A stretch of DNA of 64,000 nt from assembly GCA_000004985.1 (NCBI GenBank), contig GG738862.1; one strand, 5' to 3'. The translations under genes were made by a program, and so were the position numbers. This DNA is from Naegleria gruberi (Eukaryota). Under the pieces are notes generated by a model. That model ran no database searches. It saw nothing but the letters and a program-made list of their open reading frames with translations, and had not been told where the DNA came from. Shown in pieces: positions 1,413 to 55,659 of the stretch; the stretch's first letter is position 1; each line of letters opens with the position of its first letter.

Positions 1413-1536
1413 AAAGACTACAGCACCACAGGTTCCCAAGTTGTCTCCAACCTCAGTACTGATGTGGCTCGACGATGCTTAACTTCTCAAATCGGACGGG
1501 ATGAGGTGCATTCATCGTGATATGGCCGTAGCCATC
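1413..1536 (-). rRNA. 5S rRNA: 5S rRNA gene, copy 1 of 3
   Basis: The reverse complement reads xTGGCTACGGCCATATCACGATGAATGCACCTCATCCCGTCCGATTTGAGAAGTTAAGCATCGTCGAGCCACATCAGTACTGAGGTTGGAGACAACTTGGGAACCTGTGGTGCTGTAGTCTTT. This matches the universal 5S blocks (ACGGCCATA, CCCGTCCGAT, GAAGTTAAGC, AGTACT, GGGAA, GTGCTGTAG) and the terminal helix I pairing. It is followed on the RNA strand by a TTTTT run. Two near-identical copies lie at 24400–24523 and 55537–55659. Confidence 0.85.
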
Positions 1537-1939
1537 TACAATCTTAAATTCTGAAATATATTCAAAATGTTAAACTAAATGTAGCGTCCCACACCAGAAA
1601 CATTTACAATTGGAAGAAAATTATGATCAGAAACAAGATTTTCGAATTGGTGTTTCTGGAGTGACTGGTGTAGTTGGAGTAGCCACAACAATTTTCACAA
1701 CACTGAACGAATCACTTTGAATATTTTTGGATAGATATTGTTAAATTTGAAGATTCAAATGCCAAACCATCACATTGAGTACAAATTATAATCCCCTCCT
1801 CTCCGCAAGCTCCACCAATACATCATTTCCAAAATGCAATGACACTAATCTCAGTAACCTTCTTAAAAATCTTCAAATTTTCCCTCTTTCACTGAATTTT
1901 GTGAATAGAAAACCAAAAAAAAAGAGTTGCCACACTAAC

Positions 1940-4900
1940 ATGCCACCATTGATCAGTTCATCATCTCTAAATGGTGATGAATTGGAAGAACTTGATCTCA
2001 ATGAAGATTATGCTAGTGGTGAAGTGTTTAAGAATGGGAATGATGATGATTCGTCTCCAGAGCCATTGCATAAGGGAGCTTCTTGGATATCAATCTTGTT
2101 CTTTATGTTTGCTGGCAAGTTGATGAGTATTGGCTTTAGAAGGGCTGGTGAGAATTATTTGATGAAAATGATAAAGAACATGTTGAATCGTGTTGGAATC
2201 TTTGGTCGATTTGAGATTAGAAAGGAGGAGGGAATGAATCATGGGGATATTCCCAAGTTGGCCGAAAGTGAAAAGTCAAGCAATCATTGTGAATTATTCG
2301 AAAGAGAATATAGAGAATTGTATCGTGAGAGGGGCAATTATCGTGAAGATGGAGGATTTAGAAAGAATTATGGAGGTCTATTGTTGAGAGTAATTGAGAG
2401 AGTTTATAGAAGAAGAGGATTGTATACAGTTTCTTTGTGGAGAGTTGCAGAAATGATATGTTTGTACATGTCACCACTCATTCTCTATATTTTACTCGAG
2501 TCAATCAAAGTTGATGAGTATGTGAAAAGTGCTATACCAGCAGCCACTCAATATTTAATTCCAACATCTTCTTACGGAATATTGAGTAATGACACTGTCA
2601 TTGCATCCAATTTCACAATGAACAATGAAACAAATTGGTTTCAAGAAAACTTGCCACTCTCAAATATTTTCTTCCAGTTAACTTTGGTACTTTTTTGCAA
2701 CTTCTAAAATTTGGATTCCACTCATTGGAGCTCTTCAAGGTTCAATCCTGCAAAAGTTGAATAGAATCAAGAGTGTGGAAAGAAGAAAATTCAAAAGTGG
2801 TGAGTTGAACAATCTATTTGCCATAGACACCAGAAGTGTAGCCATGGATGGTATTGATATTCATGAAGCTTGGTTAATGCCATTGACCTTAATTGTTGGT
2901 ATTGTGTTGGTTTTCGTATTTTTTGGATATAGCTCACTTGTTGGTGTTCTTGCAATGATTATATGTGGACCAGTTCTTCCATTTTTGGGTAAATATCAAA
3001 CTAGTTTTGCAGGCAAAGCTGCACAATTCAGAGATGAAAGAATCAAACACATGAGTGAAATATTGAATGGTATTAGAATTGTTAAATTTTATGTTTTTGA
3101 AGATAAGATGAAAGAAAAGGTTAATCAAGCAAGAGAAAAGGAATATTCACTCCTCCGAAAGTATGTTACTGTAATGAGTGGATATTGCTTTACTTCATCC
3201 CTGATGGCCATTGTTGGAAGTGGAGCTACTTTTGTGACTTTCTACTATGCAGGTGGAGATTTGACTTTACCTAAAATGTTTACTGGACTAGTGTTGTTTG
3301 GAACCTTTAGATTACCATTGTTGCATTTACCTTGGGCCATTTCAAACTTGGTTTTCGCCTATGTGAGTGCCAAACGTATTGGTAGATTCTTGTTTAGTGA
3401 AGATACTGAGAAATTGCCACATGATCATGAAAATAAGGCAAACTTGTGGGAATTTGATGAAGAACAAACAGAATTTTCGTCCATTATGGATAATGACACT
3501 GCTATTGAATGTAAGGATGCTTCCATTGGATGGTCAGAAGAGGAAGCTCCAACCCTCACTGATTTAAATTTGAAAATTGAGAGAGGAAAGCTCTACTGTG
3601 TCATTGGTAATACTGGTAGTGGAAAATCAACCTTAATTTCCTCCATTTATGGTGAATCTGTTGTAAAGAGCGGAAAAGTTAAAGTTAATCCATTGTGTAA
3701 TATTTCACTCAGTGATGAAACCCCATGGTTGATCAATGCATCTGTAAGGGAAAATATTGTCTTTGATAAGAATTTAACTTTTGACAGGGAAAGATATAAT
3801 AGAATATTGGATGTTTGTCAATTAAGAGATGATCTCAGTCGATTCCCAAATTATGATAAGACTGAAATTGGTTTTTCTGGAATTAATCTTTCAGGAGGTC
3901 AAAAACATAGAATTAGTTTAGCCAGAGCTTGTTACAGTAATTCTGAAATTGTCTTGATGGATTCCACACTCAACTCAATTGATGCCAAATTGTGTAGAAA
4001 GATTTTCAATGAATGCATTTGTGGATTTTTGAAGGATAGAACTAGAATTCTCGTTACACATTCACTTCAATTATTGGAAATGGCTGATGAAGTCATTGTT
4101 TTTGAGAATGGAAAGTTGATTGCTAAAGGGTCTTTGAAGGAAATTAAGAATTCCTATGACTTTTCCAAACTAATCTCTGAAGAAAAGGAAGAAAGTGAAA
4201 CAGAAGAGAATGAAGTAACAGAAAAGGATATGAAACAAGACGAAAAGAAAGGTCAACTCGTCGCTGCAGAAGATAAGAGCTATGGTGAAGTTAGTTGGTC
4301 TGTCTTTATGACCTATATCCGTCGGTGTGGAATTTTCTTAACTGTCATCAGTCTCCTTTTGAATGTAATGTCAATGGGTGCAAAAACAGCAAGTCAAGTC
4401 TGGATATCTGTTATGAATAGTGACATGCTTAGCTTACCTCTGGTTGCCTATGTTTGGGTTTTCTTCTCTTTTGGATTAATGGACTGTTTCATCATTTTCT
4501 TTAAGGAACTAAGCTTAGGATTTGCCACATTGAAAGGTTCTAACAATCTTCATAGAAGTATGCTGAATAACATTCTGAGAGCACCAATTCAATTCTTTGA
4601 TCAGAATCCAGTCGGAAGAATATTGAATAGATTCACTCAAGATTTGGAAACTTTGGATAATATGGTCATGTTTGCTTCGGATTTTATTAGCAATGTATTG
4701 AATATCATCTTTACCTTAACTCTAATTTCTGTAATTAATCCAATGTTTTTAATTGTGGTTGTTCCAATTGGTTTTGCATTTTACATAATTCAAGAATATT
4801 ATAGGACTACATCAAGAGAACTTAGAAGATTGGAATCGATTTCAAAGAGTCCTGTAATGTCACATTTCAATTCTTGTCTGGAAGGCGTCAATACTGTCAA

Positions 4901-54280: not shown

Positions 54281-55405
54281 ATGGAAGAACATCAAGCTCT
54301 CGTTATTGACAATGGTTCTGGAATGTGTAAAGCTGGTTTCGCAGGTGAAGATGCTCCTCGTGCTGTTTTCCCATCATTGATTGGTAGACCAAAACAAAGG
54401 TCAATTATGGTTGGAATGGGTAACAAGGATGCCTATGTTGGAGATGAAGCCATGTCCAAGAAGGGTATCCTCGCTCTCAAATATCCAATTGAGCACGGAA
54501 TTATCACCAACTGGGATGATATGGAAAAGATTTGGCATCACACTTTCTATAATGAATTGAGAGTTGGACCTGAAGAGCATGGTGTCTTGTTAACTGAAGC
54601 TCCATTGAATCCAAAGGCAAATCGTGAAAAGATGACACAAATCATGTTCGAAACCTTTAGAGTTCCAGCCATGTATGTTGCCATTCAAGCTGTCTTGTCC
54701 TTGTATGCTTCTGGAAGAACTACTGGTATTGTTTTGGATTCAGGTGATGGTGTTTCACATACTGTTCCAATCTATGAAGGTTATGCTTTGCCACACGCCA
54801 TTTTAAGATTGGATTTAGCTGGTCGTGATTTAACTGATTACTTGATGAAGATCTTGATGGAACGTGGATACAGTTTCAACACCAGTGCTGAACGTGAAAT
54901 TGTAAGAGATATTAAGGAAAAGCTTTGTTATGTTGCATTTGACTTTGAAACTGAAATGAAGAAAGCATCTGATAGTTCATCCATTGATACTTCATATGAA
55001 TTACCAGATGGTAACGTTATCACAGTTGGTAACGAAAGATTCAGATGTCCAGAAGTTCTATTCCAGCCAAACTTTATTGGAATGGAAGCTGCTGGTGTTC
55101 ACGAAACTACTTTCAATTCTATTGGAAAGTGTGATATTGATATTAGAAAGGATTTATATGCCAATGTTGTTCTTTCAGGTGGTACAACCATGTTTGAAGG
55201 AATTGCTGAGAGAATGAACAAGGAATTGACAGCTATGGCTCCAGCCTCGATGAAGATTAAAGTTGTTGCTCCACCTGAAAGAAAGTATTCAGTTTGGATT
55301 GGTGGTAGTATTCTTTCCTCATTATCAACCTTTCAATCTATGTGGATATCTGCAGAGGAATATGAAGATGCTGGCTGTGCAATTGTTCACAGAAAATGTT
55401 TCTAA
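54281..55405 (+). CDS. actin (375 aa), moderately divergent
   Basis: [32 protein letters not shown]...[23 protein letters not shown]...[36 protein letters not shown]. Full-length actin fold signature. ATG at 54281 (the ORF track begins upstream at a non-initiator); TAA stop. Confidence 0.9.
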
Positions 55406-55536
55406 ACCAAGTTTACTCATAGTCATCTATCACATAAATTGTAAATAACCAAAATAAATTATCCTTATTATCATGAGAACAGACAGCCCAAAACAACCTT
55501 TAACATTTTTAGAATCCATCATAGCTATTAAGGTAA

Positions 55537-55659
55537 AAAGACTACAGCACCACAGGTTCCCAAGTTGTCTCCAACCTCAGTACTGATGTGGCTCGACGAT
55601 GCTTAACTTCTCAAATCGGACGGGATGAGGTGCATTCATCGTGATATGGCCGTAGCCAT
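55537..55659 (-). rRNA. 5S rRNA: 5S rRNA gene, copy 3 of 3
   Basis: Identical to copy 1 over the full 5S length. T5 run after the 3' end on the RNA strand. It lies between the convergent actin and flavodoxin-like genes. Confidence 0.85.

What the first reader, a model, noticed from the sequence alone, without database searches (positions are those of the whole stretch)
1413..55659. Three dispersed, virtually identical 5S rRNA genes, unlinked to rDNA and interspersed with pol II genes
Copies at 1413–1536, 24400–24523 and 55537–55659 are all on the minus strand and differ by a single base in total. Each is immediately followed by an oligo-T terminator on the RNA strand. They sit in short intergenic gaps next to the BTB gene, di-ubiquitin and actin. 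Copies 1 and 2 also share a 5'-flank element of about 16 nt (AGTTTAACATTTTGAA on the RNA strand, ~20–40 nt upstream) and a second shared block (CGAAAATCTTGT), consistent with an upstream pol III promoter element. Three copies in 64 kb implies a large dispersed 5S family kept uniform by conversion. The sequence contains GGTTGGAGACAAC in the 3' half.
Basis: seen in the sequence. Interest (0 to 1): 0.5.

Follow-up and report, generated by a model that had tools for sequence, protein, structure and literature searches.

The report
Known dispersed 5S rRNA genes, Naegleria
The three repeats are genuine, intact 5S ribosomal RNA genes of the amoeba Naegleria gruberi, part of a scattered chromosomal family of about 280 copies that was already catalogued in 2012, so the finding is correct but ordinary.

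Summary
Rfam RF00001 matches full length at 1415-1533, 24403-24521 and 55539-55657, all on the minus strand, at 103-105 bits. Copies 1 and 3 are identical. Copy 2 differs by C68U, which turns a C-G pair into a G.U wobble. Each copy ends in a run of 5-7 T, and the flanks are unique.

The window is Naegleria gruberi scaffold_18, about 64001-128000. All three copies are already listed in Table S1 of Feng et al. 2012 (279 putative 5S genes on 117 scaffolds). The 18S, 5.8S and 28S genes sit on an extrachromosomal circle, so 5S is unlinked to rDNA.

The shared 16-mer and 14-mer upstream of copies 1 and 2 are real. They lie at different distances from the gene and are missing from copy 3 and from two environmental Naegleria-type loci. 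They are better read as leftover flank homology than as a fixed promoter element.

A register-fixed upstream pattern does exist across five loci: an A/T box at about -27, TTTAA at about -15 and AT at -2/-1.

One paralogous block of a flavodoxin-like gene plus 5S shows a 100% identical 5S gene next to diverged flanks. Gene conversion itself is untested.

Verdict: already known, low interest.

The parts
1415..1533 (-). 5S rRNA gene, copy 1 (119 nt). It lies in the divergent gap between the BTB gene (580-1245, -) and the ABC transporter gene (from 1775, +). It corresponds to R33540, scaffold_18:65414-65530, in Feng 2012 Table S1.
   Evidence: RF00001 at 105.4 bits, model 1-120; sequence; coordinate match to Table S1; neighbours by Pfam
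24403..24521 (-). 5S rRNA gene, copy 2, carrying the C68U variant (C-G to U.G wobble). It lies in the divergent gap between di-ubiquitin (23454-23912, -) and a phospholipase B-like gene (from about 24745, +). It corresponds to R33542, scaffold_18:88402-88518.
   Evidence: RF00001 at 102.7 bits; single difference; Table S1; Pfam
55539..55657 (-). 5S rRNA gene, copy 3, identical to copy 1. It lies in the convergent gap between actin (54215-55405, +) and a flavodoxin-like gene (55754-56299, -). It corresponds to R33541, scaffold_18:119538-119654.
   Evidence: RF00001 at 105.4 bits; Table S1; Pfam
1411..1415 (-). T5 run at the 3' end of copy 1, the presumed pol III terminator. The matching runs are 24397-24403 (T7) for copy 2 and 55535-55539 (T5) for copy 3.
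   Evidence: Read directly from the sequence. Termination at T-runs is established pol III behaviour; it was not tested here.
1477..1484 (-). Box A-like internal element AGTTAAGC, RNA positions 50-57. The same element is at 24465-24472 in copy 2 and 55601-55608 in copy 3.
   Evidence: Regex match to the box A consensus quoted by Feng 2012
1437..1454 (-). The same element is at 24425-24442 in copy 2 and 55561-55578 in copy 3.
   Evidence: Best match to the box C consensus, with 2 mismatches (T at position 6 and A at position 13, which together form a U-A pair)
1534..1573 (-). Proximal upstream 40 nt of copy 1, with TATATT at -27..-22, TTTAAG at -15..-10 and AT at -2/-1. The matching stretches are 24522-24561 for copy 2 and 55658-55697 for copy 3. 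This is a candidate upstream promoter region that keeps a fixed register to the gene start.
   Evidence: In-register identity among five Naegleria-type loci: 8 of 10 pairs have at least 18 of 40 matches, against a background of 11.2 +/- 2.9
1561..1576 (-). 16-mer AGTTTAACATTTTGAA upstream of copy 1 (-43..-28). Its twin is at 24531-24546 upstream of copy 2 (-25..-10).
   Evidence: These are the only two matches with 0-2 mismatches in the window
1632..1645 (-). 14-mer TCGAAAATCTTGTT upstream of copy 1 (-112..-99). Its twin is at 24576-24589 upstream of copy 2 (-68..-55).
55535..56480 (-). Block of about 950 bp (flavodoxin-like gene with its 5' region, a spacer, then 5S copy 3) that is homologous to an environmental contig, L014. 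L014 carries a paralog-type flavodoxin-like gene followed by an identical 5S gene. The homology ends at the 5S T-run.

Best explanation
The three elements are intact chromosomal 5S rRNA genes of Naegleria gruberi. They belong to the already catalogued family of about 280 copies scattered over the nuclear genome.

Shown:
- They have the full 5S sequence and secondary structure.
- Their flanks are unique.
- They sit in short gaps between protein-coding genes.
- They are absent from any rDNA unit.

Inferred from established pol III biology:
- Each copy is an independent pol III transcription unit.
- It is driven by an internal type-1 control region (box A at +50..57, box C-like at +80..97).
- It is helped by a register-fixed A/T-rich upstream region (TATA-like at about -27..-22, TTTAA at about -15..-11, AT at -2/-1).
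- It is terminated at the T5-7 run.
- The RNA joins ribosomes whose other rRNAs come from the roughly 3,000-5,000 extrachromosomal rDNA circles.

Inferred from two cases here: copies spread at least partly by small DNA-level duplications or ectopic recombination that carry upstream flank but end at the 3' end of the 5S gene. The two cases are copies 1 and 2, which share upstream blocks, and copy 3 and L014, which share about 950 bp upstream including a flavodoxin-like gene.

The gene sequence is then held identical by purifying selection, gene conversion or both, while the flanks decay.
For: Gene identity: RF00001 at 103-105 bits, full length, three times. Copies differ by one wobble-compatible change, with identity ending 2-6 nt upstream and at the T-run.

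Organism: exact protein matches to N. gruberi EFC45651, EFC45648 and EFC45551 on a 502,116-bp contig.

Prior catalogue: Table S1 of PMC3369914 lists scaffold_18 copies at 65414, 88402 and 119538. Their spacings of 22,988 and 31,136 nt equal those in the window.

Dispersed arrangement: 279 hits on 117 scaffolds, median same-scaffold spacing 34 kb, no regular tandem period.

rDNA location: 18S, 5.8S and 28S are on the extrachromosomal element.

Internal promoter: box A matches and box C-like matches with 2 mismatches.

Upstream pattern: in-register upstream conservation across five loci.

Copy 3 versus L014: the coding sequence differs at 5.9% of positions (third codon positions 10.4%). The spacer is barely above shuffled controls (69 identical against 63.3 +/- 3.2). 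The 5S gene is 119/119 identical. The downstream flank shows no homology.

No target-site duplications were found.
Against: No expression or pol III occupancy data were available, so the activity of each individual copy is assumed.

Feng et al. 2012 report no recognisable TFIIIA in N. gruberi. How the internal control region is read is therefore open.

The upstream pattern rests on five loci, two of which (copy 3 and L014) are related by descent.

The N. gruberi genome itself could not be scanned here. The family-wide statements therefore rest on a published BLAST table whose similarity column does not prove identity.
Confidence: 0.9

Rival explanations
1. One reading: the shared 16-mer AGTTTAACATTTTGAA, together with CGAAAATCTTGT, is a dedicated upstream pol III promoter element of Naegleria 5S genes.
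For: The two blocks are exact, collinear and far beyond chance, and occur nowhere else in the 64 kb. In copy 2 the 16-mer overlaps the -25..-10 region, where the other copies carry their conserved A/T box and TTTAA.
Against: The blocks are absent upstream of copy 3, L005 and L014. They are also absent upstream of the three tRNA genes. Their distance to the start differs by 18 nt for the 16-mer and 44 nt for the 14-mer between the only two copies that carry them. Copy 1 has its own TATATT and TTTAAG downstream of the 16-mer. Exact blocks of 14-16 nt separated by unalignable DNA look like decaying homology rather than a binding site.
Confidence: 0.1
2. The copies are RNA-mediated retroposed 5S copies or a 5S-derived SINE-like element, many of them inert, rather than ordinary genes spread by DNA duplication.
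For: Identity between copies begins within 2-6 nt of the transcript's 5' end and stops at the terminator. That pattern is what insertion of a pol III transcript would give. An internal promoter would keep such copies active.
Against: No flanking direct repeats of 6 nt or more lie within 40 nt on either side, and there is no A-tail. All copies are full length, with intact structure. Two pairs of loci share upstream DNA beyond the transcript: copies 1 and 2, and copy 3 and L014. This points to DNA-level duplication. A conserved in-register upstream region is not expected for random insertions.
Confidence: 0.05
3. The uniformity of the copies is due to purifying selection alone, with copies arising by duplication and being lost over time (birth-and-death), and not to gene conversion.
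For: The only difference seen in the window, C68U, preserves pairing. The environmental copy L005 differs by one base, toward the Rfam consensus. In copy 3 versus L014, the 5S gene is identical while the neutral-looking DNA next to it has diverged. Selection alone can produce this for a 119-nt structured RNA.
Against: Zero changes in 119 nt is stringent even for 5S. At a divergence where third codon positions differ by 10.4%, about 12 changes would be expected if the gene were unconstrained. Many 5S positions tolerate change across species (general knowledge). The sharp boundaries are equally expected from short conversion tracts. The present data cannot decide.
Confidence: 0.4
4. The three copies are an assembly artefact, one locus duplicated in the assembly.
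For: None beyond the near identity of the 119 nt.
Against: The flanks are unrelated outside short blocks. Each copy is embedded between different, well-supported genes. The same family is seen with unique flanks on independent environmental contigs.
Confidence: 0.01

Closest known systems
Naegleria gruberi 5S rRNA gene family as catalogued by Feng et al. 2012 (PLoS One 7:e36878, Table S1)
   Same: These are the same genes. The three copies correspond to entries R33540, R33542 and R33541 on scaffold_18. That paper also reports that 5S is not located with the rDNA units, that an internal control region and a TATA box are present, and that no TFIIIA was found.
   Different: Table 1 of that paper scores the arrangement as 'tandem'. 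Its own coordinates show dispersed singletons and loose clusters: minimum spacing 462 nt, median 34 kb, no regular period. The paper does not describe the shared-flank relationships or the in-register upstream pattern.
Dispersed 5S rRNA gene families of fungi and amoebae (Schizosaccharomyces pombe, Neurospora crassa, Aspergillus, Yarrowia lipolytica, Acanthamoeba castellanii); recalled from general knowledge, not tested here
   Same: Tens to hundreds of single 5S genes are scattered among pol II genes and unlinked to rDNA. They have an internal promoter plus an upstream TATA-like element at about -25 to -30 and a T-run terminator. The debate between concerted evolution and duplication-and-loss is the same. 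As I recall, S. pombe 5S also contains the GGTTGGAGACAAC motif.
   Different: The lineage is different (Heterolobosea, Discoba). Here the large rRNAs are not chromosomal at all but sit on a multicopy circle, so 5S is the only rRNA gene in the chromosomes.
Tandem 5S arrays of kinetoplastids (Trypanosoma cruzi and T. brucei) and most animals and plants
   Same: The same RNA, pol III transcription and internal control region, and separation from the 18S-28S unit (Table 1 of PMC3369914).
   Different: Those genes are head-to-tail arrays with a fixed repeat unit. The Naegleria copies have unique flanks and are 23-31 kb apart in this window.
5S-derived SINEs and Cassandra-type retroelements
   Same: These are also dispersed copies of 5S-like sequence that carry the internal promoter.
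   Different: No LTR, tail or target-site duplication was found, and the full intact 5S structure is present.

Membership tests
5S rRNA (Rfam RF00001) | Covariance-model score above the curated gathering threshold (38 bits), over the full model | tested here: met
   105.4, 102.7 and 105.4 bits, model positions 1-120 of 120, not truncated
5S rRNA (Rfam RF00001) | Length of about 120 nt with helices I-V and conserved loop sequences (CCCGUCCGAU, AGUUAAGC, AGUAC) | tested here: met
   119 nt. The Rfam alignment shows all helices paired. The single variant, C68U, keeps its pair as U.G.
Type-1 pol III gene (internal control region, TFIIIA-dependent) | Box A consensus in the +50..+64 region | tested here: met
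   AGTTAAGC at +50..57 matches N(G/C)(C/T)(C/T)AANC
Type-1 pol III gene (internal control region, TFIIIA-dependent) | Box C consensus in the +80..+97 region | tested here: inconclusive
   The best match, at +80..97, has 2 mismatches to NNG(G/A)TGGGNG(T/A)CCN(C/T)NNG. The two mismatched bases form a U-A pair in place of G-C.
Type-1 pol III gene (internal control region, TFIIIA-dependent) | Recognition by TFIIIA | not testable with these tools
   Feng et al. 2012 report no TFIIIA homologue in N. gruberi. A binding or transcription assay would be needed.
Type-1 pol III gene (internal control region, TFIIIA-dependent) | Run of at least 4 T directly after the gene | tested here: met
   T5, T7 and T5
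Catalogued N. gruberi dispersed 5S family (Feng 2012, Table S1) | Same organism and same genomic coordinates | tested here: met
   Exact N. gruberi proteins. The scaffold_18 entries at 65414, 88402 and 119538 reproduce the window spacings of 22,988 and 31,136 nt.
rDNA-linked 5S (5S inside the 18S-5.8S-28S unit) | SSU, 5.8S or LSU rRNA genes adjacent to the 5S gene | tested here: not met
   No SSU, LSU or 5.8S hit in the 64 kb. The Naegleria rDNA unit is on the extrachromosomal element and is described as carrying 18S, 5.8S and 28S.
Tandem 5S array | Head-to-tail repeats with a constant unit length and homologous spacers | tested here: not met
   Spacings are 22,988 and 31,136 nt, with unrelated genes between the copies. 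The genome-wide table shows no regular period.
5S-derived retroposon or SINE | Target-site duplications, a 3' tail or an appended non-5S body | tested here: not met
   No flanking direct repeat of 6 nt or more within 40 nt and no tail

The most novel reading that the evidence does not exclude
Dispersed 5S genes in Naegleria may be more than passive passengers. They may mark, and perhaps create, genome-architecture boundaries.

First, in both shared-flank cases seen here the homology runs upstream and stops at the 3' end of the 5S gene. The cases are copies 1 and 2, and copy 3 and L014. This is what ectopic crossover inside 5S copies would produce.

Second, all three window copies lie in strand-switch gaps that bound unusually long runs of genes on the same strand. 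This recalls pol III genes at the boundaries of transcription units in the related kinetoplastids.
Probability: 0.12. Interest if true: 0.45.

Novelty: already known. Interest (0 to 1): 0.15.

Why it matters
The result mainly closes a question. The three elements are the chromosomal 5S rRNA genes of N. gruberi, and the exact loci were published in 2012.

Two small corrections to the literature follow.
- The family is dispersed, not tandem as tabulated in that paper.
- The often repeated statement that Naegleria has no rRNA genes in its nuclear DNA overlooks about 280 chromosomal 5S genes. These must supply ribosomes whose other rRNAs come from thousands of extrachromosomal circles.

The register-fixed upstream pattern and the shared flanks that end at the 5S gene are modest leads. 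They bear on how pol III promoters and gene-family dispersal work in a deeply branching eukaryote that reportedly lacks TFIIIA.

Tried and rejected
Reaching other N. gruberi 5S loci:
- The look-up of encoding contigs has no record of four N. gruberi proteins: P0001 and P0008, encoded in the window, and P0002 and P0006, paralogs of window genes elsewhere in the genome. The flanks of the other roughly 276 copies could therefore not be read.
- Scans of viral contigs and genome contigs with Naegleria-specific 5S patterns found nothing.
- The single metagenome scan gave one Naegleria-type locus (L005). The other 12 loci carry clearly different 5S genes (26-32 mismatches over the full-length ones): 11 on VFQM/VFQO contigs from a single other organism, and L013, on a contig with 51% G+C.

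Tests on the window:
- A search for target-site duplications was negative.
- Gapped local alignment of the 300-nt flanks gave only z=3.8 for copies 1 and 2 upstream and nothing downstream for any pair. The exact-word and in-register tests were more informative.
- The 16-mer and 14-mer were searched with mismatches to see whether copy 3 or the tRNA genes carry degenerate versions. They do not.
- The repeat finder showed that no larger repeat family embeds the 5S genes.

Searching for distant relatives of the flavodoxin-like gene plus 5S unit found only N. gruberi paralogs. The remaining hits are 41-48% identical, and every one that carries a name is bacterial.

The Fritz-Laylin 2010 genome paper is not held in the library.

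I rejected using the 'Similarity' column of Table S1 as proof of identity, because copy 2 with its C68T change has the same value (0.75) as copies 1 and 3.
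Full report
**Observation**

An Rfam scan of the whole window at gathering thresholds returns six hits: three tRNAs and three full-length 5S rRNA matches. The 5S matches are at 1415-1533, 24403-24521 and 55539-55657, all on the minus strand, at 105.4, 102.7 and 105.4 bits against a threshold of 38.

Extracted on the RNA strand, each gene is 119 nt. Copies 1 and 3 are identical. 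Copy 2 differs at one position, C68T. In the Rfam alignment this changes a C-G pair into a U.G wobble. Each gene runs straight into T5, T7 or T5.

Identity between copies stops 2-6 nt upstream of the first base and at the T-run downstream. The copies are therefore not assembly duplicates of one locus.

- AGTTTAACATTTTGAA lies at -43..-28 of copy 1 and at -25..-10 of copy 2.
- The second block extends to 14 nt, TCGAAAATCTTGTT, at -112..-99 of copy 1 and -68..-55 of copy 2.
- Neither has any other close match in the 64 kb.

Pfam confirms the neighbours: a BTB_2 protein, di-ubiquitin, actin, a flavodoxin-like protein, phospholipase B and an ABC transporter.

**Source organism and prior knowledge**

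Exact look-up of window proteins identifies the source as Naegleria gruberi: EFC45651, EFC45648 and EFC45551, on a 502,116-bp contig.

A literature search found Feng et al. 2012 (PMC3369914). That paper BLAST-searched the N. gruberi genome and reported 279 putative 5S genes. It states that they are not located with the rDNA units, have an internal control region and a TATA box, and that no TFIIIA is recognisable.

Its Table S1 lists scaffold_18 copies at 42664, 65414, 88402, 119538 and others. The spacings 22,988 and 31,136 nt are exactly those between the window copies. The window is therefore scaffold_18, about 64001-128000, and all three genes are already catalogued.

I re-analysed that table.
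- There are 279 hits on 117 scaffolds; 264 are at least 112 nt long.
- The median spacing between neighbours on a scaffold is 34 kb.
- Only 9 of 162 spacings are under 2 kb, and there is no regular period.

The family is dispersed with some loose clusters, although Table 1 of the paper ticks 'tandem'.

The large rRNAs of Naegleria are carried on 3,000-5,000 copies of an extrachromosomal circle with one 18S-5.8S-28S unit. [quoted passage not shown] The window contains no SSU or LSU hit.

**Related loci from elsewhere**

The N. gruberi genome could not be reached through the contig tools. Two independent Naegleria-type loci were nevertheless found.

- L005 is a JGI metagenome contig with a 5S gene differing by one base.
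- L014 is an ENA metagenome contig found through a cluster mate of the flavodoxin-like protein. It carries that gene followed 130 nt later by a 5S gene identical to copies 1 and 3. This is the same arrangement as window copy 3.

The L014 protein is 97.8% identical to the N. gruberi paralog EFC38939 and 93.3% identical to the window gene. L014 therefore represents a paralogous unit of flavodoxin-like gene plus 5S.

Comparing the window with L014 by compartment:
- the 5' region of the flavodoxin-like gene is 149/172 identical;
- the coding sequence has 32 differences in 546 nt (third codon positions 19 of 182);
- the spacer between stop codon and 5S gene is barely above shuffled controls (69 identical against 63.3 +/- 3.2);
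- the 5S gene is 119/119 identical;
- the DNA downstream of the T-run is at the shuffled level (83 against 82.5);
- the DNA further upstream of the block is also unrelated.

The gene is therefore held constant while adjacent DNA decays, and the homologous block ends at the 3' end of the 5S gene.

**The upstream region**

The 16-mer and 14-mer are confined to copies 1 and 2. They sit at different distances from the start in the two copies. They are absent from copy 3, L005, L014 and the tRNA upstream regions. I read them as leftovers of a small duplication that carried about 110 nt of upstream flank, not as a positioned promoter element.

A different signal is shared. When the 40 nt upstream of all five loci are compared in register, 8 of 10 pairs have 18-22 matches. 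Random intergenic 40-mers from this window give 11.2 +/- 2.9, and the probability of reaching 22 is 0.0003.

Copies 1 and 3, whose flanks otherwise show no similarity, both have TATATT at -27..-22 and TTTAAG at -15..-10. The five-locus consensus keeps a T/A-rich box at about -28..-22, TTTAA at -15..-11 and AT at -2/-1.

This fits the TATA box noted by Feng et al. It also fits the TATA-assisted 5S promoters known from fungi and plants (general knowledge). The sample is small, and copy 3 and L014 are not independent.

**Mechanism**

Each copy is most likely an autonomous pol III unit. Box A matches at +50..57. A box C-like element lies at +80..97 with two mismatches that form a U-A pair. The conserved proximal upstream region probably positions TBP and TFIIIB, and the T-run terminates transcription. 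These steps are inferred from established pol III biology, not shown here.

Dispersal by DNA-level duplication or ectopic recombination is supported by the two shared-flank cases and by the absence of target-site duplications or tails.

**Verdict**

The finding is correct in its essentials but describes an already published gene family of an ordinary, well-known kind. Interest is low. The residual leads are the register-fixed upstream pattern in an organism said to lack TFIIIA, the one-sided flank homology ending at the 5S gene, and the location of all three copies in strand-switch gaps.

Noticed in passing
window 1775-50551: About 26 consecutive ORF-defined genes lie on the + strand, interrupted only by the minus-strand di-ubiquitin gene together with 5S copy 2. 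All three 5S genes fall in strand-switch gaps, which make up 10 of 35 gaps and 28% of intergenic bases (P about 0.02). A 2026 preprint reports about 2 genes per same-strand run and no heavy tail for Heterolobosea, so this run looks unusual.
   Followed up: partly
window 55754-56299 (-); L014 2285-2908: The flavodoxin-like NAD(P)H oxidoreductase gene has close relatives only among N. gruberi paralogs (92-98% identity). The next hits are 41-48% identical, and every one of them that carries a name is bacterial (Phyllobacterium, Georhizobium). This is a possible horizontally acquired gene that was then amplified. At least two of its copies carry a 5S gene just downstream.
   Followed up: partly
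window 8966-8993 (-): A fragment matching the 5' half of tRNA-Ile (GCTGGCGTAGCTCAGTTGGTA) lies about 190 nt upstream of the intact tRNA-Ile(AAT) at 8723-8795. Between them is a duplicated motif of about 20 nt (ATTTTATTGAGAACAATTTC). Rfam and ARAGORN do not call it as a tRNA.
   Followed up: partly
L001-L004, L006-L012 (VFQM/VFQO metagenome contigs): A different, unidentified organism of 33-40% G+C also has dispersed 5S genes with unique flanks. Its copies differ from one another by compensatory helix II variants (GCATAG/CTGTGC, GTGTAG/CTGCAC, GCGTAG/CTGCGC, GCTGAG/CTCAGC). This family is not homogenised, in contrast to Naegleria.
   Followed up: no
window 9425-10660 and 13774-14505: Long arrays of 72-nt (24-residue) tandem repeats lie inside two + strand ORFs. 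I took them for leucine-rich-repeat-type proteins from the period alone; Pfam was not run on them.
   Followed up: no
Literature: PMC3369914 Table 1 versus Table S1; PMC5805870: Two published statements are at odds with the data. N. gruberi 5S genes are scored as 'tandem', yet the paper's own coordinates show dispersed copies. [quoted passage not shown]
   Followed up: yes
window 1-120000 equivalent (scaffold_18 42664, 65414, 88402, 119538): Four successive 5S copies on scaffold_18 are spaced 22,750, 22,988 and 31,136 nt apart. No large repeated block underlies the near-regular spacing.
   Followed up: partly
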